A stretch of 45,650 nucleotides of DNA from a virus. This document shows, piece after piece, positions 1 to 45,650 of the stretch. Position 1 is the stretch's first letter; each line of letters opens with the position of its first letter. The stretch spans positions 1-45,650 of the IMG/VR virus record IMGVR_UViG_3300005096_000116, one strand, 5' to 3'. The notes under the pieces were generated by a model. It was not told where the DNA came from, made no database searches, and saw nothing but the letters and a program-made list of their open reading frames with translations. The position numbers and the translations under genes are program-made.

Positions 1-91
1 AGAACCCAGGCACCAGGGAACTTCCGTATCACAAGGACTGGTCATCGAGAGTGGTTGCCCTGGCAGCTGAGGCTGCTCTTGTTAGGGGCGA
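1..91. repeat. Terminal direct duplication (1-91 = 45560-45650), a circular-assembly overlap
   Basis: The same 91 nt (agaacccaggcaccagggaacttccgtatcacaagg...ttaggggcga) occur at both window ends. The polymerase reading frame is preserved when the copies are superimposed. Confidence 0.95.
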
Positions 92-4998: not shown

Positions 4999-5381
4999 CT
5001 GGCTGGTCCAATAGTTCTAGTATCGAAATGTGTCCGATTAATATATCGACCCATGCCACAACGTCCTGAATATTCTAACTCAAGATAATCAGCAACACGA
5101 TCAGGGTCAATCTGTTCATTTGTGCGCCCTATATACAGTTTAAAATCAGCAGCACGTGCATAAATATGTTGTGAGTTTGGTGCGCCACCAACATCTGCGT
5201 TGTGTTCTTTACACCGGTTTGGTCCTGTGATTTTAATGCGGACAGTGGTGCCGAGTTCTTTAGCAAAATGATCAACGCAACCCTGCAATGCTTCAACAAG
5301 CTCAACATCAACGGTGTCAAATCCGCAACCACACTCACATGCAAATTCTTTTCTGCTTAAATTTTTAGTTAATTTTCCGAT
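4983..5381 (-). CDS. Peptidase M15A-type (zinc D-Ala-D-Ala carboxypeptidase-like) endolysin. Track ORF is 4983..5288; the conserved domain extends upstream to about 5381.
   Basis: Zn motifs SQHIYARAAD (H-x6-D) and THFD; NRCKEHNADVGGAPNSQH. The in-frame upstream extension encodes KNLSRKEFACECGCGFD, typical of the family N-terminus, but holds no ATG/GTG/TTG before TTG 5288. Confidence 0.8.
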   Translation of the reverse strand: MGKLTKNLSRKEFACECGCGFDTVDVELVEALQGCVDHFAKELGTTVRIKITGPNRCKEHNADVGGAPNSQHIYARAADFKLYIGRTNEQIDPDRVADYLELEYSGRCGMGRYINRTHFDTRTIGPARWDTR

Positions 5382-5563
5382 AAGTCACCTGTTTTCTGAG
5401 CATCTTTAATTTTCTGAGCATCTTTAATTTTCTGAGCATCTTTAATTTTCTGAGCATCTTCAGATAATGCTTGCATCACATGATTATATGCAGGAACTTC
5501 GCTGCCTTTAAGTTCAGTACGTGAAAGAAATTCAACACACAATTCAATAGCTTCTTTATCCAT
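5369..5563 (-). CDS. Hypothetical protein with DAQKIK tandem repeat (64 aa)
   Basis: ORF track; abuts the tailspike stop; contains an 18-bp in-frame tandem repeat. Confidence 0.55.
   Translation of the reverse strand: MDKEAIELCVEFLSRTELKGSEVPAYNHVMQALSEDAQKIKDAQKIKDAQKIKDAQKTGDLSEN
5392..5460. repeat. 18-bp tandem repeat, 3 perfect copies plus a 15-nt partial copy (ttttctgagcatctttaa)
   Basis: Read directly; in frame, encoding (DAQKIK)x3 then DAQKT. Confidence 0.95.
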
Positions 5564-7341: not shown

Positions 7342-10300
7342 TTACTCACGGTCAGGACCAAATGCTAACTCTTTCAATGTAATTTCTTCACCTTCTTCAA
7401 GGTACTGGTATATTTCGTCGGATGTAGCCCAAGTCTGTGCTGCACCCGGGATATGAAATATAGTAGCTGCAAAAGTGAATATCCCTTTTTGTTGTGCTCT
7501 CGTCACTTCTTCACCTTCGTATAAATTTGAAGCTGCGCCATATATACTCTCAAGCCCGTTACCCACCAAATTAAAAGCTGGTGATGCATTGAATTTATGA
7601 TAATCAGACACAAACACATTCGCAGCGTCCCTTGCGTAAGGTACAGTACCTATGGTGGTGCTTGCCATCTTTGACATTATACGCTTCATATACTCATCTG
7701 GCTCTTCGTCTTCTTCAGGTTCAGCTTCACCTCTTATCAGCAATTCATACATAGTTGTGGCGAAAATCATGTAAAATATACCGGCTGCGAATTGAGATGA
7801 GCTGACCCAACCCTGCTTTTTACCTCTAACCAGCGTCCTTTGAACATTGAACGCTGTGTTAAACCAAGTCATGAATGAGAAAAACAATCTTGCTATCTGA
7901 TTATTAGTACCTAACATCGCACTCATGTTACTAATGTCACCTGAACCCTGTGATTGATCTACGAGCCAATCCGCATATTCAACAGCTTTAGATTCATCAC
8001 CCTCAAAATCAACCATACCTTTCTCAAACCCAGCGTGCCATACAGGAAAATCAACCACATACAGCTGGACATAACCTATTCCCATCATTGATGCACGTCT
8101 GAACGAAGCGATCTTTCCTTCTTTTACTTCTATCTGTTTCATAGCATCATTGAATTCTCGATCAAATGTTTTTAACCGGTGTCGTAATACTGATGATTTA
8201 AGTAGAGCAAAATCACGAGCAGCCCACCCTTCTTGTCCGTTGATAGGGATAGTTTTCAGCATACTCATTATACCTTGTGGTATATAACCTTTACCTTCCA
8301 TCATCAATGTTCTGGCAGTGAATAACCCTGATGGTTGTATTAATATAGTACTCAATTTATAACCTAAATATACATAAGTCATACCGGTACGAAGATGCCT
8401 GGCTAAGTTTGAACCAAACACTTGCGCTTCAGTAGCTCGACCACCTTTAGCTACACTACTCAACCACACATTCATCTTAGCGTACTCTTCTTTACCTAAC
8501 TTCCGTTTAAGTTTCATTGATATTACAGGGTCACGTATAATTTTATTCACTTGTCGAACTGTGTCGTAGTGAGTGATGTAGTGAATAACTTCCTGAAAAT
8601 GATCAGTAATCACACCAAGGTCGAAACGAATTGGCGCGTAGAACTCAGTACGCGTATGAGTTGCACCGGCTGTTACAGACTGATTCAAACTACCGAGTGT
8701 AGAAAACATTGATTCGAGTCGTGCTTCACGTTTGTCTTTAAAATCAGCAGCCCTCGCATCACGATCATGATCATATTGTAAAGTGTAATAACCACCTTTC
8801 ATTTTTCCAAACTTAGTTTGGAACTCAACCGGGTCTACCTTTTTAGGTGTCAGCCCAGTACCTTTAAGTGTTGTCTCAGATAATAAAGGGTACAAAGAGT
8901 CCATTGAATCCCATACTTGTTTTACTATTGACCAATCACTTTCTGTCATGTGATCTAAAACAGCTTGAAGTTTGGGGTTATTAATTGTTATCTCAGCTTC
9001 ATTATCAGGGTTAGCCCACCCTTCCCCAAGTAACATTTTACGAAGGTTACCAGCATTACCAGCATTCAATGCAACAGACAGTATTTGATGCCCATACAAA
9101 TAAGTATTAACAGGCACGTTATCTTCGTCCACTGCAGCTATCTCTGGAATGTATATTTTTTGGTGCATACGTTTCAAATCAGTATTAGGTCGGTTCTTTA
9201 TCGCAGTGATTAAAGGTAACGCTGTACTTTCCCATAAAGTCAATTCTTCATCTCTTGCTACAACAGTTGGTCTGTGAATTAAGGAAGTCATCAACCCAGC
9301 TGGTTCACCTTTATCTAACCAGAATGTCATAAACGGAACCTTTGACATCCATGAAACACCTTCACTTGAAACACGTTCAGTCCACTTTACTTTCCCTGTT
9401 ATCTTTTCAAGTAACGTATAACCCGTTTCATCTTTGCCTGTGGTGCGTTCCGGCCTAAATACGGTATCAAGTTTATCAAGATGATTAATTATTTTAGATT
9501 TTAACTTATCAAATTCGATACTCTCTTTTAGTAGAGTTATCTTATTTGCGTACTTGGCAACATACTCAATGTTCTTCACCGAGTCATTGATGCCCTGTAA
9601 GTCTGTGAACGGAACATTTTTCCAGTGAATCACGTAGGACTCATTCAAAACCTGCTTTGATAGCACCAATTCTTCACCATGTTTTTCAAGACGTTCTTTC
9701 GCCCACAGATTAATGCTGTCAACATCCTTCAGTGTTGCTGACTTTCTGAACTCGAAGCGTTCAAGTATCTTGACGATCTGATCCCAGTAACCACCTTCAG
9801 CTTTCATGATGGCTTCACGAACTTTCTTTTTACTGTAACGTGACATACGGTCGACGATTTTCACAGTGTCATTTTTCGCAGCTGTCGCCGCCATGCCGAG
9901 ATAATAGTTCAACACCTGACGCATCTTCGCAGCAGCAGCACCTTCACGGTTACCTTCAACCAGCATCCGAGCAGATTCCTGTGCAGCGCGGATCTCAGCT
10001 TTGCGGTATTTACCCGGGTGAATCTCACGGAACGACAGTCTGCCGATGCGTTCTTCAGCTAATGCTTTAATGGTTGCACGGTCAATCGTCGGCGCGTTGG
10101 TGCCACGTGCAACCATCTTCAGCTCATGCAGTAGCAACTTACCACGTTCTTCATCCCGCACTGCCTCATCAGCTTCACGCTCAATGGTGCCGTCGGTGAG
10201 AATATCACCATGGCGTTCAACCATTTTCGCTTCAGCGTTGACCTTTGCCTGGTCTTTGATAGCCGGTGCAGTGATCAGGTCAATCAACATCTCAGACCCG

Positions 10301-31081: not shown

Positions 31082-31561
31082 CTACAAAAATGAAACAACT
31101 TCTTTATTATCATCAGCTTGTTTCTCTTTACGACGTTTTCGACCACGCAGCAGTCGATCCATCACCTCTTTATCAGAGTTAACTTCAACCTTCTCAGCGG
31201 CGAACGCATCAACGAACACGTGTTTGGCCACCAGGTTGAGTGCAGTATTGCTGGCCGGCAGGTTGCCGCGCTGCCTGGCAATTAGATGATTATCCACTGC
31301 TTCCATCAACAGCCACTCTGCATCAATGTCACTGGTCTCTAACCTGGCCGCCAGCACGCGCTCAATCGCCGCAGAGATGTGTTTTTTGTTCCTGATACCG
31401 TGACCACTGTCAGGTGACCACCCTGAAGCTTCAGCAGCACGACGTGCACTGAAGTCTTTGCAATACTCGACAACGAAGTTTGCATCTCTGGGATTTAACC
31501 CGGTCAGATCTTTTAATGTGATGCGTGGTGGCATTGTTTTAACCTGGTTGTTTAATATCAT
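31082..31561 (-). CDS. Terminase small subunit (159 aa)
   Basis: FVVEYCKDFSARRAAEASGWSPDSGHGIRNKKHISAAIE matches the Terminase_2-type HTH N-terminus; basic C-terminus; upstream of terL. Confidence 0.8.
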   Translation of the reverse strand: MILNNQVKTMPPRITLKDLTGLNPRDANFVVEYCKDFSARRAAEASGWSPDSGHGIRNKKHISAAIERVLAARLETSDIDAEWLLMEAVDNHLIARQRGNLPASNTALNLVAKHVFVDAFAAEKVEVNSDKEVMDRLLRGRKRRKEKQADDNKEVVSFL

Positions 31562-31787
31562 CGATCAGTAGTTCAACGATGTTCAGTGCTTTTTCTTCAG
31601 TTATATCTTTGAATATTGATTCTGCTTTATCCCATCCAGTGTCATTATCTTTAAACGCATAAGCTATTGAACATACACTAAGTGTTTCAGGCTCAAAGTA
31701 AAACCTTACTTCTGGTCTTGATTCATCATCATTGTCAAATTTTACTAACACCTGACCAACATCAGTTTCATATAATTTTGCGAACAT
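31539..31787 (-). CDS. Hypothetical protein, first gene of the late operon (82 aa)
   Basis: ORF track; GGTGA SD 6 nt upstream of the ATG. Confidence 0.6.
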   Translation of the reverse strand: MFAKLYETDVGQVLVKFDNDDESRPEVRFYFEPETLSVCSIAYAFKDNDTGWDKAESIFKDITEEKALNIVELLIDDIKQPG

Positions 31788-32607
31788 AACATATCACCGT
31801 TGAAATCAATTAGTTATGCCGAGTGTATCACCGGTTGATAATAAACTGCAAATAAGGTGATATTCAGCACTGTTTCGCTGGAACGCTCAGAATGTTTTAG
31901 GGTCGGTCGTTTTACTGTATTAACCGACACAGTTAAATCAGTTTAAAAACATGGAACGACACAATGAAAAAAATCATAATGTGTTATAAATCACATGCTT
32001 ACTCTAAGAATCAATAACCTACCACATACGAGTTGACCACAGGTTGAGCACTCAATCCTGAGAATTGAAGAGTCTCTCATTTCACAGGTTGGGGTATTCG
32101 TTTTCACTAGTATGTCCTAAGTCATTGATTCTTATTTCACCGTCTATATGAATCAGTTACTTAGGGCATACCACTACCCATAAAGAGATACTTACGATCC
32201 TATATAAATCAATGACTTACCACATATATCTCTTTAGTATAGGTTACTTGTTCAAAGTAGGTATGTCTCATATAACTTATTGATATATAAAGAGAAAATA
32301 GAAAAAGTTAAACGACTTTCGGTCGTTTGTCCTAAGCTGTTGATTGTTAGCATAAGTCATTGATATACAAGAAGAATAAATCCGACACATAGTTTATTGG
32401 GTCGTTTGTCCTAAGTCATTGATTTTTTAGTAATATCCGACACAATGAAAATCAGTAAATTATCGTCTTGAAATGATGCAAATCGAGTCATTTTAATATT
32501 GTTAATTAAATCACATACTTACTTTAAAAATCAATAGTTTACGACACCATATGTGTCGTTTGTCATTCGGTCATATAATATTCGACACAATGAAACGTTG
32601 ATTTTAC
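31788..32607. promoter_or_regulatory. 820-bp non-coding divergent hub with at least four repeat families (candidate origin / operator array / early-late switch)
   Basis: No ORF above 20 codons. CGACAC repeats (31925, 31957, 32383, 32438, 32542, 32583; inverted at 32553). TGTCCTAAGTCATTGATT family (32113, 32328, 32351, 32407; inverted at 32150-32170 and 32205-32220). 25-nt direct repeat 32321-32345 / 32400-32424. 29-nt repeat 31988-32016 / 32508-32536. Confidence 0.8.
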
Positions 32608-32973
32608 ATGTATATTCCTTATAATTCGTCACGTAACTTTAATAAACGAGGACACACAGTGAATAAAGACAACCGACTAAATCGTGGTAAAAAAGAACGT
32701 ATCACTCAAAAAGAACTTCAAAGTCGTATGTTTTACAATCCAGTAAAAGGTACTTTCATGCGAATAAAGAATGTCAGCAACAGCCACAAAGCTGGTGAAA
32801 TCATCGGAACTAATCATCACCAGGGGCACTTAAACGTCATGATTAACAGTGAAATTTATAAACTACATCATCTCGCATGGCTATACATGACCGGCGAGTG
32901 GCCAACGAAAGCCATTAGGCACATCAACGGCGACAAAACCGACAACCGTTTCTTTAATCTGAAATATACTTGA
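32608..32973 (+). CDS. HNH endonuclease (HNH_3-type). An alternative start at GTG 32659 has a GAGGA SD.
   Basis: YKLHHLAWLYMTGEWP...IRHINGDKTDNRFFNL matches the His-Me finger pattern H..aW...G....vdHiNGd..DNR..NL. Confidence 0.75.
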   Translation: MYIPYNSSRNFNKRGHTVNKDNRLNRGKKERITQKELQSRMFYNPVKGTFMRIKNVSNSHKAGEIIGTNHHQGHLNVMINSEIYKLHHLAWLYMTGEWPTKAIRHINGDKTDNRFFNLKYT

Positions 32974-33516: not shown

Positions 33517-33711
33517 ATGAACAACAACATTGTAACAAATAAATTTATCGATGACCTTTGCGGAAGAGACATCCAGGTTCAAGTGTTCCTGATGAACGGT
33601 ATCAAACTGGAAGGTTCAATCGTCAGTTTCGATGACGAGAGTATCCTACTATACTCAGGCAAGACACAGCTGGTGGCGCGCCAGGTCATCTCAACATTGC
33701 AGGAGAAGTGA
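33517..33711 (+). CDS. hfq: Hfq-like Sm-fold RNA chaperone (64 aa, core only)
   Basis: FIDDLCGRDIQVQVFLMNGIKLEGSIVSFDDESILLYSGKTQLVARQVISTL aligns without gaps to E. coli Hfq [59 protein letters not shown] SD present. Confidence 0.9.
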   Translation: MNNNIVTNKFIDDLCGRDIQVQVFLMNGIKLEGSIVSFDDESILLYSGKTQLVARQVISTLQEK

Positions 33712-35052: not shown

Positions 35053-35304
35053 GTGATTATGGAAAAACCAACAATACCAGAAGTGATGCCGTTAATTAAA
35101 GCATACTACGCAATTTCGGGTAACGGTGTTGGCGGGAACCTGCACATCATACTAGACGATGGGAACATCGATAATGAAGATGTTAAGTTTTGTCTTGATG
35201 AATGCAAAAAATCATGTGACTCTGAAGGTGTTATTTTATGTGGGTTACTTTTACGTATGTCAAAAACTCAGCGGCGAAAGATGTATAAGATGTCGCACAC
35301 ATGA
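35053..35304 (+). CDS. Hypothetical protein (83 aa; [12 protein letters not shown] motif)
   Basis: ORF track; likely ATG start at 35059. Confidence 0.55.
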
Positions 35305-35492
35305 ACACCAGGCGCTGCACCAAATGCAACTCGATGACACAGGTGATCGATTCACGTGTTAACGGTGACGGGCATATCAGGCGTAGGCGTGAGTGTCCAA
35401 GATGTAAAGCACGCTGTACCACGTATGAGTCATCGTATGATGAACTACGGCGTATAAAAGGTAAGCTTGAAAACTACGAAGCAATTAATTAA
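35301..35492 (+). CDS. NrdR-like zinc-ribbon protein lacking the ATP-cone (63 aa)
   Basis: [38 protein letters not shown] aligns to the E. coli NrdR N-terminus [40 protein letters not shown]. The protein ends about 20 aa later. Confidence 0.8.
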
Positions 35493-35954: not shown

Positions 35955-36127
35955 CCACCACCTGCAAAGCTTACCGCACAAGCACCGGTGACTACGTCTG
36001 TGACCGCTGTAGCATACAATGGGATAAGAACGACACCAAGCCACCCTGTAGAATTTTAACACCCAGGAAAGCCAGTGAGCACGTTCACCGGCTATCAATG
36101 GATCAGATCAACGCGATGCTAAGTTAA
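35951..36127 (+). CDS. Small Cys-rich protein (58 aa, below the track cutoff)
   Basis: Hand translation MTTTCKAYRTSTGDYVCDRCSIQWDKNDTKPPCRIL...; ATGA overlap with the upstream stop. Its 3' end overlaps the convergent minus-strand gene by 9 nt. Confidence 0.45.
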   Translation: MTTTCKAYRTSTGDYVCDRCSIQWDKNDTKPPCRILTPRKASEHVHRLSMDQINAMLS

Positions 36128-36337
36128 TGCTTCGCTCAACCACTTTGAATAGTTTGCAGCTTTTTCAGCATCGCGTTGAGGATTCTCAGGTGTTTTGTGC
36201 ATCATTCGACATTGATATTTAATAGCATTACCTAGTAAATAACCTTGATACTGTTCAGGTGTCAATTTAGCTTTAATAATGTCAAGTGTTTCAATTCCAC
36301 CAACATCATAGTAATTACTTTTCTCGTCTTTACTCAT
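36119..36337 (-). CDS. DUF3310-family protein (72 aa)
   Basis: YYDVGGIETLDIIKAKL...LLGNAIKYQCRMMHK...DAEKAANYSKWL fits the DUF3310 pattern. Confidence 0.7.
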   Translation of the reverse strand: MSKDEKSNYYDVGGIETLDIIKAKLTPEQYQGYLLGNAIKYQCRMMHKTPENPQRDAEKAANYSKWLSEALT

Positions 36338-36339
36338 AA

Positions 36340-36531
36340 TTATTTCTCAGTTGACGAATTAATTATTCTTCTTATTTCACCGTAATAAAGAACACCGTCA
36401 TTTGCATATTGCTTCACAGCATTCAACGCACCAGGTAACGCTTTAGCCTTAGCAACTGCAACGTCATACTTGTTTGTTTCATTAGCCTGTTTAATTATTA
36501 CAGGTCGATTTAACCAGCTACCTTTTCTCAT
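36340..36531 (-). CDS. Hypothetical protein (63 aa)
   Basis: ORF track; AAGAGGTGAACAATC-ATG. Confidence 0.55.
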   Translation of the reverse strand: MRKGSWLNRPVIIKQANETNKYDVAVAKAKALPGALNAVKQYANDGVLYYGEIRRIINSSTEK

Positions 36532-36612
36532 GATTGTTCACCTCTTTATATATTTCCCATACCATTCTGAACCCCGCCTCAAACATAGATTCATTTTTTC
36601 ATAGCTATGTTG

Positions 36613-36783
36613 TTAACTTCGAGCATAACCAGCCTTAAAACAAAACCACGCTTCATCAACAGTCTCATTTGTGTAGTGTTTACCATCTTCGGTTTTGCCT
36701 TCTATCAAACTTTCATCAACATCACCATGTATGTTAATAAACCAATTCTCAAACTCTTTTTGTACGTTATCTATACTGCTCAT
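36613..36783 (-). CDS. Small protein (56 aa, below the track cutoff)
   Basis: Hand translation MSSIDNVQKEFENWFINIHGDVDESLIEGKTEDGKHYTNETVDEAWFCFKAGYARS; GGGGTGA SD. The plus-strand track ORF 36607..36813 is its shadow. Confidence 0.5.
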   Translation of the reverse strand: MSSIDNVQKEFENWFINIHGDVDESLIEGKTEDGKHYTNETVDEAWFCFKAGYARS

Positions 36784-36788
36784 AATCA

Positions 36789-39407
36789 TCACCCCTGTAC
36801 TAATTTCATTTGAACTTCACCACGCACCGTTGTCATCTGTCGATCATATTCATTGAATAATTCTTTAGAGTCCATGTGATCGTACTTCTCATGGTTACGC
36901 AGCATTGTTAATTTTATGGGTTTACCCAACCGGTACACTGTACGCTGTGAATATCCACCCATTTCTTTGAGTATCATGCCTATTTTGATCGGTGTGAAGT
37001 ATCGACCATCACTATACATTTCATTCGGTGCAAATATACCACCACTTCTCAATGTGTCAGACATATCGCTACAACTCACCAGGTCACACTTAAACACACC
37101 GAGTCCTTTGTCGATGAATGCTTCGATGGTCTGTTGCATCGGTGACTTAGACGCTTCTTTGATTTCACGTAGGAACTCAGTCATCGGTGGTGCTTCAGCC
37201 GGGTTAAAGTCACTCAGATCAACCCGGTACATCAGGTGCCAGGCGACGTGTTTCCATCCATCCGCTTTTATCCAGTTCCAGCGATCCTCCCAGTAAGCCA
37301 GCCATTCAGGTGTCATGCTGTCGTCAGCGTTACGGGGGTTAAGATCTGACCAGACGGCAAAGAACCGTCGTGATGGTCCGTTCAGTCGCAACGGCATCAT
37401 GCTGTTCGTTGTCATTGATGCGTTGACGATATTACGGATCTTTATCGGTTTGATGTTCTTCTGATTAACTCTGAACGTATCCGGCGGCGCTGCGGCCAGT
37501 GGTTTTAATTTGTTACTGACAGCCATTGCTTCACGTCTATCGCCCAGTTCAGCTTCATTGATATGAAGGTATTTTGTAGATAGCACATAGTCATGGAACC
37601 CTTCCAGCAGTTCCTCACCGCTGATTACTTCATAGTTCTCACCCATCGCTTTTGTCAGTGGGTAGAGTAGAAAATCTTTACCGCAGCCTTCACCACTGCC
37701 GAGTAATAACATATGGTTAATCTTACGTTCAGGGTGCCGCAGAGTGTACGCCATCCACTGTTCAATATGTTTCCTATGCTCACCCCACCCGAGTGCGTCG
37801 AAGTGGTCATGCCAGCGTGCAACATCACCCTCGACACCGTAGTCCTGAGTGTCATCTGACCAAGTGTTCGCATACACGGTGCCGTTTTCAATGAACACCT
37901 GGGGTTGTTTCGGTGCGTAATCAAGCCGATCAACCTTTCGCACCCGGCCATCTTGCAACGCAATTTTACGGGCTTCGTTATCTTCGTGGCTGAAGCTGTT
38001 CTGGAACGCGTCGGTGCTGAAGAATATGCGTGACTTCCAGTCGTAGAACTGATTCAACTCTTTAACGAATACCACATTGTCGTAGAAATCTGCCTTGCTG
38101 ATCTTCTCACCGTACCATTGCTGGCGGAGACTTTTGAGAATGTCTTTAAAATCACCCTTCCCCCAACCCATCAGGTCACACACTTCTGTATGCCGCGGCA
38201 GTTGATCGAGCTTTGGCAGGTCATCAGTGTATTTCAGGATGTCTGAAGCCAGTTTGCGTGCTTCAGGGGAACGATGGTTGATACGGTGCAGCTCGTCACA
38301 CATCATCTGTATCGCATCAGCTGCTGCTGGCGCTGCCTCTTCTGCCGGTTGCGTCGCCGCCGGCTGTAGAAAGCTGACCATTGGCTGTTGTGTGACTTGG
38401 GTTTGCGCTGGTACTGTGCTTGTTGTTGCAGGCGTGAGAAAGCTAGGTTCGGCGACACTGGAAAATTCTCGCATGATCTGCCAATTTTTAAGTATGCTAG
38501 AAAATCCGGGGGAGTTTCCATCGATAAATCGTAGCAAATCTCTTCCTGTACGTTCCTGACAACTTCCGTGGTGGCACTTGAATCCGATACTACCATCAGC
38601 GTTTGTGAAGACTGCCGAACCACTGTCGTCACTTCCTGTGTGCTCATCGACCCATGGACATGTAATATCAAAGCGGCCATCTGAACGTACCTCTTTTATG
38701 TGAATAGTTTCTGGAATGTTTATTAACGGGTGATCACTGACAGCAGCGGCACCGTCGATGCGTGATTCGCGCCGCACTCTATCAAGATCAACAGCGAATG
38801 GTTGTGCAAGCTGTTCAAGAGTAACTCGGTTGAACGGCTCCCATAGCGTCAGGTTGCACTTGAACGGAAGTCCGTTAACCAGCTTCGATGCTTTGCTGTT
38901 CGATCCTTCAGGTAGGCGCACGTAGCGTGTCACGCCTTTCATACCTGGATCTTTACCTTCAGGCGCTAACCCGTTGGCCACCAGTCCATCAAGTAGGTTC
39001 TCAACACGTGCTCGGTCAGTGCAGGGTGTGTCGAGAATGTAGCCCCACTGCTCACTACCCTGCGATGTCTCAAGTATCCACGCCGGCCGAGGGAGCTTCG
39101 ACACCTCAGTCATCGATAACTTCTCTTTCACATCATCCAGTACGATTACCGGTGTGTGCCTGAACAATGCTTTGCGCCGGCGTGCCTGCTGCTGATCATC
39201 ACAGTAGAAGTTGCTGATGGTGAAGTATTGATTGTAACCGGGTTGCAGTCCGTACCGGCTGAAGTAGTCACCCTTCCAGGCGATGAGATGTTGATCTTTT
39301 GGGATGTTCCCCGGATCATAAGGGAAGTCTGTAACGTGTACCCACGGTGCATCAACTCCAAATAACGCCGTCAGAAACTCACTGTTTGTCACCATTGAAT
39401 CTGTCAC
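36789..39407 (-). CDS. Primase-polymerase (AEP-type) fused to an SF3/D5-like helicase (872 aa)
   Basis: VIVLDDV (DxD), TSQGSEQWGY, zinc motif CPWVDEHTG...FKCHHGSC, P-loop LLLGSGEGCGKD (non-canonical D after GK), LHINEAE Walker B-like. Confidence 0.85.
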   Translation of the reverse strand: MTDSMVTNSEFLTALFGVDAPWVHVTDFPYDPGNIPKDQHLIAWKGDYFSRYGLQPGYNQYFTISNFYCDDQQQARRRKALFRHTPVIVLDDVKEKLSMTEVSKLPRPAWILETSQGSEQWGYILDTPCTDRARVENLLDGLVANGLAPEGKDPGMKGVTRYVRLPEGSNSKASKLVNGLPFKCNLTLWEPFNRVTLEQLAQPFAVDLDRVRRESRIDGAAAVSDHPLINIPETIHIKEVRSDGRFDITCPWVDEHTGSDDSGSAVFTNADGSIGFKCHHGSCQERTGRDLLRFIDGNSPGFSSILKNWQIMREFSSVAEPSFLTPATTSTVPAQTQVTQQPMVSFLQPAATQPAEEAAPAAADAIQMMCDELHRINHRSPEARKLASDILKYTDDLPKLDQLPRHTEVCDLMGWGKGDFKDILKSLRQQWYGEKISKADFYDNVVFVKELNQFYDWKSRIFFSTDAFQNSFSHEDNEARKIALQDGRVRKVDRLDYAPKQPQVFIENGTVYANTWSDDTQDYGVEGDVARWHDHFDALGWGEHRKHIEQWMAYTLRHPERKINHMLLLGSGEGCGKDFLLYPLTKAMGENYEVISGEELLEGFHDYVLSTKYLHINEAELGDRREAMAVSNKLKPLAAAPPDTFRVNQKNIKPIKIRNIVNASMTTNSMMPLRLNGPSRRFFAVWSDLNPRNADDSMTPEWLAYWEDRWNWIKADGWKHVAWHLMYRVDLSDFNPAEAPPMTEFLREIKEASKSPMQQTIEAFIDKGLGVFKCDLVSCSDMSDTLRSGGIFAPNEMYSDGRYFTPIKIGMILKEMGGYSQRTVYRLGKPIKLTMLRNHEKYDHMDSKELFNEYDRQMTTVRGEVQMKLVQG

Positions 39408-39411
39408 TGTA

Positions 39412-39660
39412 TTATTTACGGTTTATACGACGTGCTTTTCTTTGTGCTTTGCGTGCTGATTTTTTACTGCTGTGAAACGATCTGCTAATTAATTTAGGCG
39501 GTTTTACATTTTGATAATTTTCAGATTTACAACGTTCTTCTTCTAATTGTATTAATCTATCGTTCATTTGTTCAGTAAGATTATCACCTTCAAATATCTC
39601 ACATGATTTTTCGTCGTTATATTCAACTTGTTGCATAATTATCACCTCGTAGACCATCAA
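39412..39660 (-). CDS. Hypothetical protein with a basic C-terminus (82 aa), first gene of the inverted island
   Basis: ORF track. Confidence 0.55.
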   Translation of the reverse strand: MMVYEVIIMQQVEYNDEKSCEIFEGDNLTEQMNDRLIQLEEERCKSENYQNVKPPKLISRSFHSSKKSARKAQRKARRINRK

Positions 39661-39694
39661 CTATAAACCAACAGAACAGTTCTGTCATGGTGAG

Positions 39695-39722
39695 ATTATG
39701 CGAATAGTGGAACAAAGTCAAA
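39695..39722 (-). promoter_or_regulatory. Sigma70-like promoter for the inverted island (TTGACT-16-CATAAT)
   Basis: Minus strand reads ttgactttgttccactattcgcataat. It shares TTGAC..TGTTCCACT with the promoter at 32970. Confidence 0.55.
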
Positions 39723-39729
39723 TAAAATG

Positions 39730-39759
39730 TTGACATTTGTCACATTGTGCTACTAGAAT
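39730..39759 (+). promoter_or_regulatory. Sigma70-like promoter (TTGACA-18-TAGAAT), back-to-back with the minus-strand promoter
   Basis: ttgacatttgtcacattgtgctactagaat read directly, 45 nt upstream of the 39804 start. Confidence 0.6.
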
Positions 39760-39803
39760 AGGATCGTGTTAAACAATTTTTAACTTTTAATGAGGAATTT
39801 GAT

Positions 39804-40137: not shown

Positions 40138-40353
40138 ATGGCTGATAAAGAGAACAGTCAGACACTTGACGGTAATTTGCGTGTGCGAATTGAACAGAGT
40201 GAACTTGACATTTTCATGGCTAAATCTGAACGAGCAACAGGGAAGCCATATCAGCTGTTGACTCGTGAAATGATAATCGCTTTTAATGATGGTCGCATCA
40301 TACCAACAGAAGACCAAAAAGAATCTCTCGGAGAATTATATAATGTCAATTGA
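40138..40353 (+). CDS. Putative ribbon-helix-helix DNA-binding protein (71 aa)
   Basis: [36 protein letters not shown] resembles the MobC/CopG-type strand-helix-helix pattern. Confidence 0.35.
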
Positions 40354-40714
40354 ATCAAACCTTAAACGTATCGCTGATGCACTGGAAACCATAGCAGCTT
40401 CAATAAATGCGTCAAAGGTGTCTGCCCCTGATAAACCAACAACTGTAGCAGAAGTGATCACCGCTGTTCCTGCCGCTGTTCCTGCCGCTGTTCCTGCCGC
40501 TGTTCCTGCCGCTGTTCCTGCCGCTGTTGCCGCCGCTGAAGCAATCACCGACGAAGCGATGAATGCTGAACTGGTTGCTGAGTTCACGCGTTTGGGTAGT
40601 CGTGAACAGATCGACGTTGAGATGAAAAAACTTAACATCGCGGGTGCCGCTGGTCTGAATGCTGAAATGCAGAACACATTACTGACAGCTATCAGAGCTA
40701 TTCCAAATGGGTAA
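40343..40714 (+). CDS. Hypothetical protein with an (AVPA)n linker (123 aa from ATG 40343; the track gives an alt-start at 40286)
   Basis: GGAGAATTATATA-ATG; 12-bp tandem repeat in frame. Confidence 0.55.
40461..40532. repeat. 12-bp tandem repeat ccgctgttcctg, 5 perfect copies plus 1 degenerate copy
   Basis: Read directly; encodes AVPA x5 then AVAA. Confidence 0.95.
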
Positions 40715-42140
40715 CCACGCACGACTCGGTCCCTCAAATGCACGCTGGCCAAATTGTCCGGGGTCAGTGCGTGAGGAAGAACGCTACTCGGACATATCCG
40801 GTGAAGCGGCCATCGATGGTACAGGGTCACACCTGTTGCTTGAGATGTGTCTGGAAAACAACGTGCCAGCCATGCAGTACGATCAGCAGATTATCGGCGT
40901 TAATCACCCTGACAATATGAACGGATGGTTGGTTGACCCTGCACGTGCAGGACGTGTGCAGATGGCGTTGGACTACATTACTCGTCGTGTTGAAGAGTTG
41001 AAAGCTGCGTACACCGATTGCCAGGTGACGGTCGAATCTGAAGGTAAGTCTGACCCAGGTGGTGCATTCGGTCGTAAGGATTGGTGGGGCACCGTTGATA
41101 TCAGTATCATCGCACGTCACAAAATGACAGGTGAGGTGTTGTTTCTTGAAATCGCTGACTACAAAGACGGTCGTGGTTATGTTTCTGAGAAAAATAACAC
41201 ACAGTTAATCAGCTACCTGTTCGGTAAGATGCGACACTACATCGCCAGTGGTTCTGATTTAGTGCGACCATTCAACCACGGTAAGATCAATGAATGCCGG
41301 GTGACTATCATCCAACCGAAGACGAACCCAGTGGTGCGATATCAATGTACGACGCGAGTTGAAGATGAATTCACCGTTACCGGTGTAATTGAAGCTGCTG
41401 AAATACTGGCGCAATCTGCACAGTTAACTGATAACAATAACGCACCGTTAATACCCGGTAAACATTGCCAATGGTGTAAAGCAAATCCTAAACGCGGCGG
41501 TCACTGTACCGCTGAAACAGAAAAATCATTACAAGTGGTGGAGAACATGAGTAATAAGAGTCCATTGAATTTAAGTACGTCAGACATGAGTCTGTTTGAT
41601 TATTTCAGTGAAGTAATCGCAGATCCTAAGTCGTTAACTGAAGAACAGTTAACACAAATGGCAGATGCCGAAGATGGAATCATGGCAGTGTTCACCAAAG
41701 TCAAAGCTGAAATTCAGGAACGTATTGAGCAAGGTGTATCGGTGCCAGGTTATGCAATGGAGCCGGGGCGTGGTGCAAATGTGTACGCTTCAGACGAAGT
41801 ATCAATTGTTAAAAAATTGAAAGCGTGTCGTTTGAAGAACGCTGACATCTACCCACCTAAACTCATTAGCCCTGCACAATTGATGAAACTGGAACAACTG
41901 ACTGATAAACAGAAAGAACGTTTACAGAAAGAAATAATCAGTTTCAAAGCAGGTAAGTTGACACTGAAGAAAGTTGCTTATGATCATAAAGCGATTAAAG
42001 AAGTTGCTTATGATCATAAAGCGATTAAAGAAGTTGCACAAAGTGGTACAGATGATGTACAATCCAAGTCAGCAGAACTGATGTTCGCTGAAGTTCCTAA
42101 ACAACCGGCAGAAGAACCTGCTGTAGTTTCATTCATTTAA
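40707..42140 (+). CDS. DUF2800-like PD-(D/E)xK (Cas4/RecB-like) nuclease (477 aa)
   Basis: N-terminal LGPSNARWPNCPGS...IDGTGSHLLLE, D...LEIADYKDG nuclease core, CQWCKA...GGHC cysteine cluster. Confidence 0.75.
   Translation: MGNHARLGPSNARWPNCPGSVREEERYSDISGEAAIDGTGSHLLLEMCLENNVPAMQYDQQIIGVNHPDNMNGWLVDPARAGRVQMALDYITRRVEELKAAYTDCQVTVESEGKSDPGGAFGRKDWWGTVDISIIARHKMTGEVLFLEIADYKDGRGYVSEKNNTQLISYLFGKMRHYIASGSDLVRPFNHGKINECRVTIIQPKTNPVVRYQCTTRVEDEFTVTGVIEAAEILAQSAQLTDNNNAPLIPGKHCQWCKANPKRGGHCTAETEKSLQVVENMSNKSPLNLSTSDMSLFDYFSEVIADPKSLTEEQLTQMADAEDGIMAVFTKVKAEIQERIEQGVSVPGYAMEPGRGANVYASDEVSIVKKLKACRLKNADIYPPKLISPAQLMKLEQLTDKQKERLQKEIISFKAGKLTLKKVAYDHKAIKEVAYDHKAIKEVAQSGTDDVQSKSAELMFAEVPKQPAEEPAVVSFI
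41971..42030. repeat. Perfect 30-bp tandem duplication (aagttgcttatgatcataaagcgattaaag x2, plus a 7-nt partial copy)
   Basis: Read directly; encodes KVAYDHKAIKE twice near the nuclease C-terminus. Confidence 0.95.
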
Positions 42141-43062: not shown

Positions 43063-43136
43063 TGCCCGTTAGTGTAGTGGTAACACACCGAACTTTGACT
43101 TCGGTATCATAGGTTCAAATCCTGTACGGGCTACCA
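43063..43136 (+). tRNA. tRNA-Gln (anticodon UUG), CCA encoded
   Basis: Hand-folded cloverleaf: U8 A9, D stem gtgt/acac with a GG loop, anticodon stem ccgaa/ttcgg, loop c-t-TTG-a-c, T arm atagg-TTCAAAT-cctgt, acceptor gcccgt/acgggc, discriminator A, then CCA. Position 1:72 is U.U. Confidence 0.8.
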
Positions 43137-44074: not shown

Positions 44075-45650
44075 ACCCCGACTTCATCTTCAATGTAACA
44101 ACCGGCGACATCAGCTACGATATTGAAACATTCCCCAACGTCTTCACCATCAAGCTGCTGCACAAGACAACACGTCGTCGTTGGTACTTTGAGATAAGTT
44201 ATCGAAGGAACGATATCGTATCGTTCTGTCGCTTCATCGATGTGCTGGCACAGCAAAGTGTACGCATGGTTGGGTACAACAACATCGGGTTCGACTACCC
44301 GGTGATTCACTTCATCTATCGTAACCAGCACGCAGGCATCGGTGCTGCTGAGATTTATGAGAAAGCAATGTCGATCATCAACGCACATGGTCCAGCCAGG
44401 TTCGCTCACATGGTGTGGGAATCTGAGTGGTTAGTTGAGCAGATTGACCTATATAAGATCCACCACTTCGACAACATAGCAAAAGCCACCAGTCTGAAAG
44501 TGCTTGAATTCAACATGCGTATGGACAGCATTGAAGATCTACCGTTCCCCGTTGGTACTGTGCTCAATGATGAGCAGGCTGACACACTCGCTGAGTACAA
44601 TGAGCACGATGTCGATGCGACTGATATGTTTCTGGAACGTACACAGCCACAGATCAAACTACGTGAACGACTGAGTGAACAGTTCGGCAAGAACATGATG
44701 AACATGAGTGATGTCAAGATGGGTGAAACCATTCTGGTCACCGAGATGGAGCGACGTGGCATTTCATGCTATGAGTACGTCGGTAATAAGAAAGTCAAAC
44801 GTCAAACTAAACGTGAATCAATTGATCTAGGTCAAGTCATCTTCCCTTATGTGAACTTTGAATCACAGGCGTTTCAGCAGATTAAAATATACCTGGAATC
44901 CAAAGTTATCACCGAGACGAAAGGTGTGTTCAAAGGACTCATCGCTACCATTGATGGTCTAGATTACCACTTCGGCACCGGCGGTATGCACGCATCGGTT
45001 GAGTCTCAGGTGGTGCATACTACTGATACACACCAGCTGGTTGACGTAGATGTGGCTGGTTTCTATGTACAAATGGCTATTAAAAATAAACTTTATCCGG
45101 AGCATCTTGGTATTGAATTTTGCGAGGCTTATAAAGGTGTATCAGATACCCGTAACACGTTTAAAAAAGGCACACCGGAAAACGAAGCGTTTAAATTAGC
45201 AGGCAATGGTGCGTATGGTGGTAGTAACAATGACTACTCACCATTCCTTGACGCAAAGTACACTATGACAATCACCATCAACGGTCAGCTACTACTGTGC
45301 ATGTTGATTGAACAACTGGTGAAGGTTCCTGGGTTGCGTATGATACAGGCGAACACAGACGGCGTGACGTACTTATGCCCGCATGATTATCTTGAGCACA
45401 CCAGTTCATTGTGTCGGTGGTGGGAAGGTGTCACTAAACTTGAGCTTGAAGAAGCACTGTATAATCGTATGTTCATCAGAGATGTGAACAGTTACATCGC
45501 TGAGAAGACTGACGGCAAACTTAAACGCATAGGAGCATACGCACATGTCACAGCAGAAGAGAACCCAGGCACCAGGGAACTTCCGTATCACAAGGACTGG
45601 TCATCGAGAGTGGTTGCCCTGGCAGCTGAGGCTGCTCTTGTTAGGGGCGA
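44071..45650 (+). CDS. DNA polymerase, family B-like with a DEDD 3'-5' exonuclease domain, N-terminal part (open at the window end; continues at 92..557)
   Basis: Hand translation from ATG 44071. ExoI YDIETFPN, ExoII YNNIGFDYPVIHF, ExoIII YNEHDVDAT. Pol motif A DVDVAGFYVQ (D..S/G-L/F-Y), motif B KLAGNGAYGG (K...N..YG), motif C QANTDGV (DTD-like). No stop before 45650. Confidence 0.85.
   Translation, partial: MNPDFIFNVTTGDISYDIETFPNVFTIKLLHKTTRRRWYFEISYRRNDIVSFCRFIDVLAQQSVRMVGYNNIGFDYPVIHFIYRNQHAGIGAAEIYEKAMSIINAHGPARFAHMVWESEWLVEQIDLYKIHHFDNIAKATSLKVLEFNMRMDSIEDLPFPVGTVLNDEQADTLAEYNEHDVDATDMFLERTQPQIKLRERLSEQFGKNMMNMSDVKMGETILVTEMERRGISCYEYVGNKKVKRQTKRESIDLGQVIFPYVNFESQAFQQIKIYLESKVITETKGVFKGLIATIDGLDYHFGTGGMHASVESQVVHTTDTHQLVDVDVAGFYVQMAIKNKLYPEHLGIEFCEAYKGVSDTRNTFKKGTPENEAFKLAGNGAYGGSNNDYSPFLDAKYTMTITINGQLLLCMLIEQLVKVPGLRMIQANTDGVTYLCPHDYLEHTSSLCRWWEGVTKLELEEALYNRMFIRDVNSYIAEKTDGKLKRIGAYAHVTAEENPGTRELPYHKDWSSRVVALAAEAALVRG
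45560..45650. repeat. Second copy of the 91-bp terminal duplication
   Basis: Identical to 1-91. Confidence 0.95.

What the first reader, a model, noticed from the sequence alone, without database searches (positions are those of the whole stretch)
31788..32607. 820-bp ORF-free divergent hub packed with four interleaved repeat families
This is the only large non-coding region. It sits exactly where the late (minus) and early (plus) arms diverge. It contains four repeat families.

(a) CGACAC(A) elements on the plus strand at 31925, 31957, 32383, 32438, 32542 and 32583, plus an inverted copy at 32553. Three of them extend to CGACACAATGAAA.

(b) A TGTCCTAAGTCATTGATT family: plus orientation at 32113, 32328, 32351 and 32407, inverted at 32150-32170 and 32205-32220. 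The first pair forms a 21-nt imperfect palindrome with an 18-nt spacer. The core AATCAATGACTTA fits the IHF consensus WATCAANNNNTTR.

(c) A 25-nt direct repeat GGTCGTTTGTCCTAAG...TTGATT at 32321 and 32400, identical at 22 of 25 positions.

(d) A 29-nt repeat AAATCACAT.CTTACT.TAA.AATCAATA at 31988 and 32508, exactly 520 bp apart, with 3 mismatches.

It also holds small hairpins, aaacgac-N5-gtcgttt at 32310-32328 and acgacac-N5-gtgtcgt at 32541-32559. On the minus strand the first hairpin is followed by AACTTTTTCTATTTTCTCTTT, so it looks like a terminator for a short leftward transcript.

This density is what an iteron-type origin, a multi-operator genetic switch or an sRNA locus would show. It is not explained by any annotated gene.
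Basis: seen in the sequence. Interest (0 to 1): 0.65.

Follow-up and report, generated by a model that had tools for sequence, protein, structure and literature searches.

The report
IHF-site-packed phage control hub
The only long non-coding stretch of this marine phage genome is a conserved landing pad for DNA-binding proteins, crowded with consensus sites for the host DNA-bending protein IHF and with phage-specific repeats; it most likely holds the early and late promoters and the replication origin, which makes it a well-defined target for experiments rather than a new kind of element.

Summary

The dominant family is a perfect IHF consensus, WATCAANNNNTTR. There are 8 copies in 871 nt, against 3 in the other 44.7 kb. 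In 873 kb of unrelated viral DNA, no locus had 3 or more within 900 nt.

About 12 distant relatives (TerS 54-70% identical) keep a 500-900-bp hub at the same place. Each holds the same IHF-type box plus its own lineage-specific repeats. Between two close relatives, one such repeat changed in concert in all its copies.

IHF-box clusters also occur in phages that share no proteins with this one, which points to a host factor.

No conserved peptide, Rfam hit or stable RNA fold supports an sRNA locus.

A sigma-70 early promoter and an extended -10 late promoter sit at the two edges.

My best reading (confidence ~0.4) is an IHF-organised iteron-type origin fused to the divergent promoter region. 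The candidate initiator is the primase-helicase, whose C-terminal domain is hypervariable. A transcription-only switch (~0.3) and a packaging site (~0.12) remain open.

The parts
31788..32658 (.). Whole non-coding hub, between the first late ORF (82 aa, 31539-31787, -) / TerS (31082-31561, -) and the first early ORF (HNH_3, +)
   Evidence: Longest ORF-free stretch of the genome. No peptide is conserved in relatives. Repeat density is far above simulations.
31822..31830 (-). Candidate late promoter: extended -10, TGATACACT on the minus strand, about 35 nt upstream of the late ORF's ATG
   Evidence: It aligns with a conserved (C)TGTGCTAnAnT / ATGCTAnAnT element upstream of the first late ORF in 8 of 9 relatives. 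No canonical -35 is present, and the consensus scan found no minus-strand promoter inside the hub. Inferred.
31804..31816 (+). IHF-type box AATCAATTAGTTA (perfect consensus), in the late 5' leader
31885..31902 (+). Single copy of GCTCAGAATGTTTTAGGG, the repeat that is multi-copy in relatives L006, L020, L008 and L010
   Evidence: 17-nt exact match to L006 in inverted orientation.
31925..31931 (+). CGACACA element (short form)
31957..31969 (+). CGACACAATGAAA element, copy 1 (no -10-like hexamer upstream)
31976..32026 (+).
   Evidence: D3 (76% identical to copy 2, 520 nt away)
32033..32041 (+). TTGACCACA, two mismatches from the DnaA box. It lies at the position where three relatives carry a perfect TTATCCACA followed by GGTT
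   Evidence: sequences. Weak lead only.
32110..32171 (.). 62-nt palindrome made of two inverted IHF-type boxes (32118-32130 on -, 32151-32163 on +)
   Evidence: I2. It is the only strongly structured element (z -7.3 and -4.9). Equivalent inverted box pairs occur in L029, L007 and L008.
32202..32244 (+). IHF-type box AATCAATGACTTA (32207-32219) plus its 3' flank. This is the block best conserved in relatives
   Evidence: 39 of 43 positions identical to L006, whose TerS is only 67% identical
32273..32285 (-). IHF-type box TATCAATAAGTTA (perfect), bordering an A-rich tract at 32280-32309
32310..32328 (.). Small hairpin AAACGAC-N5-GTCGTTT. The right arm is part of the GGTCGTTTGTCC repeat
   Evidence: Weak as RNA (-6.9 kcal/mol, z -0.9). 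Not found in the closest relative, L029.
32321..32345 (+). 25-nt repeat, copy 1: GGTCGTTTGTCCTAAGCTGTTGATT. A window-specific box fused to an inverted IHF-type box (32333-32345, -)
32353..32365 (-). IHF-type box TATCAATGACTTA (perfect)
32383..32389 (+). CGACACA element (short form)
32400..32424 (+). 25-nt repeat, copy 2: GGTCGTTTGTCCTAAGTCATTGATT (inverted IHF-type box at 32412-32424, -)
32431..32450 (+). E-box copy 1: TAATATCCGACACAATGAAA, a -10-like hexamer plus CGACACAATGAAA. An IHF-like box, AATCAGTAAATTA, follows at 32450-32462
   Evidence: It resembles the conserved CATAATAACC(C/A)(T/C)AC..AAAAGTG element of L006, L007, L010, L011, L012 and L029 (read). Homology is inferred.
32496..32546 (+). 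51-nt module, copy 2: boxes AATCACATACTTA (32509) and AATCAATAGTTTA (32529). It overlaps the AT-richest 40-mer of the genome (32490-32531, 87.5% A+T)
32541..32559 (.). Palindrome ACGACAC-N5-GTGTCGT (two inverted CGACAC elements), centred about 36 nt upstream of the start expected from E-box copy 2
   Evidence: Weak as RNA (-8.6 kcal/mol, z -1.7).
32576..32595 (+). E-box copy 2: TAATATTCGACACAATGAAA, with a perfect TATAAT at 32574-32579. It abuts the -35 of the early promoter
32598..32625 (+). Early sigma-70 promoter: TTGATT-16-TATAAT (10 of 12)
   Evidence: Relatives carry TTGACA-17-TACAAT at the same edge.
32648..32661 (+). GAGGA Shine-Dalgarno and in-frame GTG (32659): the probable true start of the HNH_3 gene
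   Evidence: Inferred.
36789..37151 (-). 3' end of the primase-helicase gene (whole gene 36789-39407), encoding a hypervariable C-terminal ~120 aa. Candidate sequence-specific binder of the lineage-specific repeats
   Evidence: 50-57% identity among relatives, against 79-87% in the preceding 190 aa. The AF2 model has a helix-helix-helix-hairpin order but low confidence. The fold search gave only weak winged-helix hits. Inferred link.

Best explanation
The region is the conserved non-coding control hub of a lineage of marine podophages. It works as a protein-DNA assembly, not as a gene or an RNA.

Shown by sequence and comparison:
1. The two edges carry the outward-facing promoters of the late arm (extended -10, minus strand) and the early arm (sigma-70, plus strand).
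2. The ~750 bp between them is an array of 13 boxes matching the consensus of the host DNA-bending protein IHF (8 perfect). They lie in both orientations, several as inverted pairs or 20-nt tandems.
3. Interleaved with them are repeats specific to this phage (CGACACAATGAAA, GGTCGTTTGTCC). In each relative these are replaced by a different repeat at equivalent places.

Inferred:
- The conserved boxes are bound by host IHF, which folds the hub.
- The lineage-specific repeats are bound by a phage-encoded protein whose specificity co-evolves with them.
- The array is the phage's replication origin, of the iteron + IHF + AT-rich type (as in pSC101, R6K gamma, P1 oriR, P4 ori and SaPI ori).
- The initiator is the primase-helicase, acting through its hypervariable C-terminal domain.
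- The -10-only E-box promoters and the flanking promoters provide transcriptional activation, and couple origin firing to the early/late programme.
For: Position and non-coding status:
- It is the only long non-coding region and contains the AT-richest 40-mer of the genome.
- Its repeat families occur nowhere else in the genome.

IHF-type boxes:
- IHF consensus at 9.2 per kb, against 0.07 per kb in the rest of the genome and 0.105 per kb in unrelated viral DNA.
- The consensus and its AT-rich 5' side agree with PMC7581858.
- A 47-site logo reads TAWAWATCAATRACTTACnACA.
- Clusters of the same box occur in phage contigs that share no protein with this phage: L028, and L033/L026. They also occur in Dickeya phage Amaethon, and one box lies 4 nt from the annotated attR of Stx phage PA2. 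This points to a host factor.

Conservation and co-evolution:
- About 12 relatives keep an ORF-poor hub of roughly 350-900 bp with the same grammar but different lineage-specific repeats.
- L006 and L020 are 92% identical across the hub. Their substitutions concentrate in one repeat, GGTACAATGTGAGA -> GGTATGAGGTGAAA. A single copy and the one palindrome arm present in both sequences changed alike, and a second single copy in L020 carries the same new sequence.
- The primase-helicase C-terminal 120 aa is 50-57% identical between all pairs, against 79-87% just upstream.
- Perfect DnaA boxes occur in 3 of 14 hubs, where about 0.08 is expected. All three are on the late-proximal side.

Promoters:
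- Canonical promoters are not enriched inside the hub: 3 found, 6.6 expected.
Against: - Nothing here maps an initiation site. GC skew follows gene orientation, including the inverted block 36119-39660, so it says nothing about replication.
- This phage has no DnaA box within one mismatch.
- An AT-rich tract is not obvious in every relative.
- The hub is 4.1 kb from the primase gene.
- C-terminal tails are often variable for trivial reasons. The model of this one is poor (pLDDT 52) and the fold hits are not significant (best E 0.1).
- The variable early genes next to the hub could equally encode the cognate binder. That would favour a transcription switch.
- IHF binding itself is inferred from the consensus. 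The boxes carry extra conserved positions (TRAC, CnACA) that are not part of the 13-bp IHF consensus.
Confidence: 0.4

Rival explanations
1. Transcription-only switch. The hub is a divergent early/late promoter region. The lineage-specific repeats are operators or activator sites for an early phage regulator encoded in the variable early region. The IHF boxes bend the DNA so that distant sites contact the two promoters, as in the Mu Pe/Pc-O1-O3-IHF region or IHF-assisted lambda pL. Replication starts elsewhere.
For: - Both edge promoters are conserved.
- Lineage-specific repeats sit at promoter-relevant positions. In L007 one covers the -35 position of the late promoter. This phage and L006 each carry one about 55-80 nt upstream of the late -10. 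CGACACAATGAAA abuts the early -35, and a CGACAC palindrome sits at about -36 of E-box 2.
- The late promoter lacks a -35, as activator-dependent promoters do.
- The genes next to the hub are hypervariable between relatives. That fits a cognate regulator swapped together with its sites.
- In L033/L026 an IHF-box cluster lies directly upstream of a consensus early promoter.
Against: - No regulator has been identified. PHROGs and Pfam find nothing DNA-binding next to the hub except a stand-alone NrdR-type zinc ribbon, which is absent from relatives.
- Thirteen IHF-type boxes and more than 10 other repeats over 750 bp is far more than known two-promoter switches use.
- The repeats are absent from the genome's other divergent intergenic region, 39661-39803.
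- It does not explain the DnaA boxes in three relatives or the hypervariable primase C-terminus.
Confidence: 0.3
2. Packaging initiation region (pac or cos). The repeats nearest the small terminase gene are TerS binding sites, and the IHF boxes bend the DNA for terminase assembly, as in lambda cosB (R3-I1-R2-R1) or P1 pac. The virion DNA ends or the first headful cut lie in the hub.
For: - The hub abuts TerS in all relatives.
- TerS belongs to the SF6/SPP1-type family (Pfam Terminase_2; PDB matches), whose pac lies at and upstream of the TerS gene (established knowledge).
- In the unrelated contig L028, the IHF-box cluster lies between TerS and TerL.
- TCACCG is about 4-fold enriched in the TerS-proximal 300 nt of the hubs.
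- Many relatives' contigs end within or just beyond the hub.
Against: - The contig ends fall at different, non-homologous positions. Assembly breaks in a hypervariable region explain this better.
- TerS is 54-70% identical across relatives while the repeats differ completely, so TerS is a poor candidate for the lineage-specific sites.
- Known pac and cos sites span 100-300 bp, not ~870 bp.
- In L033/L026 and Dickeya phage Amaethon the box clusters are not next to a recognisable TerS.
- TerL has no sequence relative of known packaging type in the PDB.
Confidence: 0.12
3. Small-RNA locus. The -10-like E-boxes start short non-coding RNAs that end at the two hairpins and act with the phage-encoded Hfq.
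For: - A phage Hfq gene lies 0.9 kb downstream.
- There are two -10-like hexamers with no ORF behind them.
- Terminator-like hairpins are slightly enriched: 3 found, 0.7 expected.
Against: - Rfam gives no hit.
- The hairpins are weak and have poor U-tails. Candidate transcripts have z between -1.5 and +0.5.
- The hairpins are not conserved in the closest relative.
- In L006/L020 the palindrome changed together with non-palindromic single copies of the same sequence. The sequence is therefore selected, not the pairing.
- Hfq is absent from relatives that keep the hub.
Confidence: 0.05

Closest known systems
Iteron-type theta origins that use IHF (pSC101 ori, R6K gamma ori, P1 oriR)
   Same: A non-coding cluster of direct and inverted short repeats, IHF site(s), an AT-rich tract, and inverted repeats close to a promoter. 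Three relatives also have DnaA boxes.
   Different: - There are 13 IHF-type boxes here, where those origins have one or two.
- No Rep/pi/RepA-type initiator gene is present.
- No DnaA box within one mismatch in this phage.
- The element is a lytic phage, not a plasmid.
- Origin activity is untested.
Satellite phage P4 ori/crr with the alpha primase-helicase, and SaPI ori with Rep
   Same: The initiator would be a primase-helicase whose C-terminal domain reads short repeats. That domain is the fast-diverging part of the protein, and the repeats are lineage-specific.
   Different: - No sequence or confident structural match to the P4 alpha origin-binding domain.
- The helicase part matches the NrS-1 primase.
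- The hub is 4 kb from the gene.
- IHF is not a known component of P4 or SaPI origins.
Phage Mu early regulatory region (divergent Pe/Pc, operators O1-O3, IHF site)
   Same: Divergent promoters, with repeated operators and an IHF bend between them.
   Different: Mu uses one IHF site and about 200 bp. No repressor or lysogeny functions are seen in this phage. The array here is four times longer.
Lambda cosB (R3-I1-R2-R1) and P1 pac
   Same: Directly next to the small terminase gene. Repeats are interspersed with IHF sites.
   Different: - The hub is much larger.
- The repeats are not conserved with TerS.
- TerS is transcribed away from the hub.
- The termini are unknown.
T5 injection-stop region and T7 left-end leader (from my own knowledge, not checked here)
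   Same: A long ORF-free stretch ahead of the early genes, rich in repeats, palindromes and host-factor sites (T5) or promoters (T7).
   Different: The position of the virion DNA ends relative to the hub is unknown. Canonical promoters are not enriched in the hub.

Membership tests
IHF binding site | 13-bp consensus WATCAANNNNTTR | tested here: met
   8 perfect and 5 one-mismatch boxes in 871 nt. Consensus as quoted in PMC7581858.
IHF binding site | A/T-rich 5' side | tested here: met
   The logo shows T-A-W-A immediately 5' of WATCAA. However, the A/T stretch is adjacent, not about 8 bp away as in lambda H' (my own knowledge).
IHF binding site | Occurs independently of phage lineage, as expected for a host factor | tested here: met
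   Clusters in L028, L033/L026 and Dickeya phage Amaethon, and one box beside attR of Stx phage PA2, with no shared proteins.
IHF binding site | Bound and bent by IHF | not testable with these tools
   Needs EMSA or footprinting with the host's IHF. The host is unknown; the nearest cultured relatives infect Vibrio.
Iteron-type replication origin | Several copies of a short element-specific repeat | tested here: met
   CGACACA x6, CGACACAATGAAA x3 and GTCGTTT(GTC) x5, confined to the hub. Different repeats occupy the same places in relatives.
Iteron-type replication origin | Adjacent AT-rich unwinding region | tested here: met
   32490-32531 is the AT-richest 40-mer of the genome. An A-rich tract lies at 32280-32309.
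Iteron-type replication origin | DnaA box(es) | tested here: not met
   None within one mismatch in this phage. Perfect boxes occur in L003, L010 and L029 only.
Iteron-type replication origin | Cognate initiator with a sequence-specific DNA-binding domain | tested here: inconclusive
   The primase-helicase C-terminus is hypervariable. The model has pLDDT 52 and the fold hits have E >= 0.1, although most are winged-helix proteins.
Iteron-type replication origin | Initiation of DNA synthesis maps there | not testable with these tools
   GC skew is confounded by gene orientation.
pac/cos packaging site | Next to the terminase genes | tested here: met
   The TerS start is 226 nt from the hub, with one 82-aa ORF between.
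pac/cos packaging site | Defined DNA end or cut at the site | tested here: inconclusive
   Relatives' contigs often end in or near the hub, but at non-homologous positions. The window is a circular assembly with a 91-nt overlap inside the polymerase gene.
Hfq-dependent sRNA gene | Promoter, stable structure and a Rho-independent terminator with a U-tail | tested here: not met
   z between -1.7 and +0.5, and weak tails.
Hfq-dependent sRNA gene | Conservation or covariation of the RNA structure, or a known family | tested here: not met
   No Rfam match. The hairpins are absent in L029. The palindrome in L006/L020 co-varies with unpaired copies.
Divergent promoter/operator switch | Two outward promoters | tested here: met
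   TTGATT-16-TATAAT on +. A conserved extended -10 on -. Sequence-level evidence only.
Divergent promoter/operator switch | Identified cognate repressor or activator | tested here: not met
   No DNA-binding family was found among neighbouring ORFs, except an NrdR-type zinc ribbon that relatives lack.

The most novel reading that the evidence does not exclude
Arrays of IHF-consensus boxes are a portable scaffold that many unrelated phages of gamma-proteobacteria place in their main non-coding region. In this lineage the scaffold is interleaved with repeats read by the hypervariable C-terminal domain of the primase-helicase. Origin specificity would then diversify like plasmid incompatibility groups, in a lytic phage, and one IHF-folded particle would couple origin firing to the early/late transcription switch.
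Probability: 0.2. Interest if true: 0.7.

Novelty: new variant of a known kind. Interest (0 to 1): 0.5.

Why it matters
- Origins and regulatory circuits of marine podophages without their own RNA polymerase are essentially unmapped. This hub gives a precise 870-bp target with named sites and a candidate binder.
- The density of consensus IHF boxes (8 perfect in 871 nt, with up to 6 in relatives) is far above any background measured here. The same box cluster recurs in unrelated phages, which suggests a general way in which phages recruit a host architectural protein.
- The concerted change of lineage-specific repeats, together with a hypervariable primase-helicase C-terminus, is a testable case of protein-site co-evolution. 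It could explain replicon specificity between co-infecting phages.
- In practical terms, the hub marks where to look for origin, promoters and possibly packaging signals when engineering these phages.

Tried and rejected
- **DNA similarity to GenBank phages.** Near and distant BLAST of the region found no match.
- **Exact-protein look-up of the 82-aa ORF.** Not on record.
- **Metagenome scan with TerS.** It returned mostly the same distant relatives and none closer.
- **Coding hypothesis.** Six-frame peptides of the hub against all relatives gave nothing beyond the one conserved DNA block.
- **Rfam, at gathering and permissive thresholds.** Nothing credible; best E 0.15 and well below gathering scores.
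- **RNA folding of hairpins and candidate transcripts.** Unremarkable except the DNA palindrome.
- **GC skew as an origin marker.** It flips with gene orientation, so it is uninformative.
- **Global alignment of hubs.** Only the boxes align; 43-64% column identity.
- **Searches for the window-specific 15- and 16-mers in IMG/VR.** Only single hits at about chance numbers, none with box clusters nearby. I reused these 92 loci as a null set.
- **TCACCG (P4-iteron-like) motif.** Only about 4-fold enriched, and one copy is simply the late gene's Shine-Dalgarno. Kept as a weak lead.
- **sigma-54 and T4-late-type promoter readings of the boxes.** Considered by eye and dropped, because the spacing does not fit and no matching sigma factor was found.
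- **NrdR-box reading of CGACAC-N5-GTGTCG.** The half-sites fit, but by my recollection of the 16-bp NrdR box (not checked here) the palindrome is 3 nt too short. The zinc-ribbon gene is also absent from relatives.
- **Structure route for the primase C-terminus.** Only two homologues were found. The model has pLDDT 52 and the fold search has no significant hit.
- **TerL against the PDB, to infer packaging type.** No hit.
- **Literature searches for the relatives and for phage Hfq.** Nothing bears on the hub.
Full report
**Context**

The window is a circularly closed assembly. The first and last 91 nt are identical, giving a unit of about 45,559 bp. It is a tailed phage.
- A late arm lies on the minus strand (TerS 31082-31561, TerL, portal, capsid and a 2314-aa virion protein).
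- An early/replication arm lies mostly on the plus strand: HNH_3, an Hfq-like ORF, an NrdR-type zinc ribbon, DUF2800, an Enc34-type SSB, polymerase, an SNF2 helicase and a tRNA-Gln.
- An inverted block within that arm holds a DUF5906 primase-helicase.

No RNA polymerase gene was found.

The nearest cultured phages are Vibrio podophages (PS25B.1, 1.021.A-C, 1.185.O, MZH0603) at about 66% TerL identity. The region itself has no DNA match in GenBank phages.

**Observation**

The long forms of the repeats occur only here in the genome: CGACACAATGAAA x3, GTCGTTTGTC x3, TGTCCTAAG x3 and TAAGTCATTGAT 3+/1-.

The region is the longest stretch without an ORF of at least 50 aa: 820 nt, against 228 nt for the next. 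It contains the AT-richest 40-mer of the genome, at 32490-32531.

Identical 10-mer pairs number 56, against 2.7 +/- 2.2 in simulations. The two windows that score higher are tandem repeats inside genes.

The hub probably extends to 32658. The early promoter TTGATT-16-TATAAT (32598-32625) overlaps the ATG at 32608. An in-frame GTG at 32659 has a GAGGA ribosome-binding site.

**The main component is an IHF-type box**

Families (b) and (d), and part of (c), are one family.
- Eight boxes match WATCAANNNNTTR perfectly, and five more miss by one base.
- The density is 9.2 per kb, against 0.07 per kb in the rest of the genome.
- In 92 unrelated IMG/VR loci (873 kb) it is 0.105 per kb, and no locus has three within 900 nt.
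- The consensus and its A/T-rich 5' side are as described for IHF (PMC7581858).
- A logo from 47 boxes of this phage and its relatives reads TAWAWATCAATRACTTACnACA. It therefore carries information beyond the 13-bp IHF consensus.

**Relatives**

TerS-based scans found about a dozen distant relatives, 54-70% identical. A scan with the box itself found two closer ones, L029 and L034, with TerL 83% and capsid 89% identical.

All of them keep an ORF-poor region of roughly 350-900 bp between the first late ORF and divergently oriented early genes.

The hubs do not align globally but share a grammar:
- IHF-type boxes in both orientations, often as inverted pairs.
- A consensus sigma-70 promoter at the early edge. 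It is TTGACA-17-TACAAT in L007, L011 and L017.
- A conserved (C)TGTGCTAnAnT extended -10 ahead of the first late ORF. This phage has TGATACACT at 31822-31830 on the minus strand.
- A rightward element with a -10-like hexamer, CATAATAACC(C/A)(T/C)AC..AAAAGTG. The TAATATYCGACACAATGAAA element of this phage resembles it.
- Repeats that differ from phage to phage: AACATTCTCAGCGACAT in L006, CATTTTCTGCGACA and GGTTAAGTGTGAGAAT in L007, GTCGCTCAGAAT in L008, CGTTAAAGTACCC in L009, and AACATTTTCCTTGTAAAT in L012.

One block, 32202-32244, is 39 of 43 positions identical to L006. This phage also keeps a single copy of L006's repeat, at 31885-31902.

**Why binding sites and not RNA or protein**
- No peptide encoded in the hub is conserved.
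- Rfam finds nothing.
- The two small hairpins and the candidate transcripts fold no better than shuffled sequence. Only the 62-nt inverted box pair does, with z -7.3.
- L006 and L020 are 92% identical across the hub, yet their differences pile up in one repeat: GGTACAATGTGAGA becomes GGTATGAGGTGAAA. A single copy and the one palindrome arm present in both sequences changed alike, and a second single copy in L020 carries the same new sequence; the L020 contig ends inside the other arm. Selection is thus on the sequence shared by all copies, as for sites read by one protein whose specificity changed.
- The Hfq and NrdR-type genes of this phage are missing from the early regions of relatives that keep the hub.

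**Why a host factor for the conserved box**

The box pattern also picked up contigs with no detectable protein similarity to this phage.
- L028 has five perfect boxes in 370 nt between TerS and TerL.
- L033 and L026 each have three boxes just upstream of a consensus early promoter. In L033 they follow a tRNA-Met and a terminator.
- In GenBank, the box occurs twice in a repeated module within a 1.15-kb non-coding gap of Dickeya phage Amaethon.
- It also occurs 4 nt from the annotated attR of Stx phage PA2, where an IHF site would be expected.

**Which process**

The edges are promoters, but canonical promoters are not enriched inside the hub: 3 found, 6.6 expected. Three functions remain.

*Origin.* I favour this reading, at about 0.4. 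Arguments for it:
- The cluster is unique in the genome.
- It combines lineage-specific direct and inverted repeats, IHF sites and the genome's most AT-rich segment.
- Three relatives have a perfect DnaA box on the late-proximal side, where about 0.08 is expected over all hubs. This phage has only TTGACCACA there.
- The primase-helicase, otherwise 79-94% conserved, drops to 50-57% identity in its last 120 residues in every pairwise comparison. This is as expected if that domain reads the changing repeats, as in P4 alpha or SaPI Rep.
- The structural test of that domain was inconclusive. The model has pLDDT 52 with a helix-helix-helix-hairpin order, and the fold hits are mostly winged-helix proteins but with E of 0.1 or worse.

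*Transcription-only switch,* at about 0.3. It fits the position of some repeats at promoter elements, and the hypervariable neighbouring early genes. It lacks an identified regulator and does not need so many sites.

*Packaging site,* at about 0.12.
- In its favour are the adjacency to an SF6/SPP1-type TerS, the L028 arrangement and a 4-fold TCACCG enrichment.
- Against it, TerS is conserved while the repeats are not.
- The contig ends near the hub are non-homologous.

These functions are not mutually exclusive. GC skew cannot help, because it follows gene orientation.

**Novelty and score**

Each ingredient is known: IHF sites, iterons, divergent promoters. What is unusual is the number and quality of IHF boxes, their recurrence as clusters in unrelated phages, and the apparent co-variation between lineage-specific repeats and a primase-helicase tail in a lytic phage.

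I class it as a new variant of a known kind, with interest 0.5.

Noticed in passing
window 33517-33711 (+): A 64-aa ORF matches the Hfq family (Pfam E 1.3e-11). It is not found in the early regions of the relatives examined.
   Followed up: partly
window 35301-35492 (+): A stand-alone 63-aa NrdR-type zinc ribbon without an ATP-cone. The palindrome CGACAC-N5-GTGTCG at 32541-32559 has NrdR-box-like ACAC/GTGT ends, but by my recollection of the 16-bp NrdR box it is 3 nt too short. The gene is absent from relatives.
   Followed up: partly
window 36789-37151 (-), 3' end of the primase-helicase gene: The last ~120 residues are 50-57% identical between all relatives, while the preceding 190 residues are 79-87% identical. 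Variation is concentrated in a predicted helix plus beta-hairpin.
   Followed up: yes
window 1-91 and 45560-45650: An exact 91-nt terminal overlap inside the DNA polymerase gene. This is an artefact of circular assembly, not a true terminal repeat.
   Followed up: yes
window 40461-40538, 5392-5460 and 41971-42037: In-frame tandem repeats inside genes: 12 nt x6.5 in ORF 40286-40714, 18 nt x3.8 in ORF 5369-5563, and 30 nt x2.2 in the DUF2800 gene.
   Followed up: partly
window 43063-43136 (+): A tRNA-Gln (anticodon TTG) in the second-largest non-coding gap.
   Followed up: no
window 32608-32973 (+); L017 2165-2437, L001 7717-7854, L010 5087-5341: An HNH_3 endonuclease gene borders the hub. Homologues sit at different places around the terminase genes in three relatives, as a mobile homing endonuclease would. 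The true start here is probably GTG 32659.
   Followed up: partly
L028 2324-2674; L033 2577-2680; L026 46-150; L037 (Dickeya phage Amaethon MH059635) 2187 and 2508; L036 (Stx phage PA2) 1507: Clusters or copies of the same IHF-type box occur in phages that share no proteins with this one. One lies between TerS and TerL, one upstream of an early promoter, one in a 1.15-kb non-coding gap, and one 4 nt from an annotated attR.
   Followed up: partly
L003, L010 and L029 hubs (L010 has two adjacent boxes): Perfect DnaA boxes, TTATCCACA followed by GGTT, on the late-proximal side of three relatives' hubs. This phage has TTGACCACAGGTT at 32033-32045.
   Followed up: partly
L006 5380-6010 versus L020 1-594: Two hubs are 92% identical. 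Their differences concentrate in one repeat, which changed in concert in a single copy and in the palindrome arm present in both contigs.
   Followed up: yes
L003, L004, L005, L008, L011, L013, L017, L020, L022 and L023: Many metagenomic contigs of relatives end inside or just beyond the hub, at non-homologous positions. The likely cause is assembly breaks at a hypervariable hub and early region.
   Followed up: partly
L029 about 7960-8040: A tRNA-like T-arm sequence (GGTGGGAGTCGAACCCAC) lies in the hub of the closest relative, but ARAGORN calls no tRNA there.
   Followed up: partly
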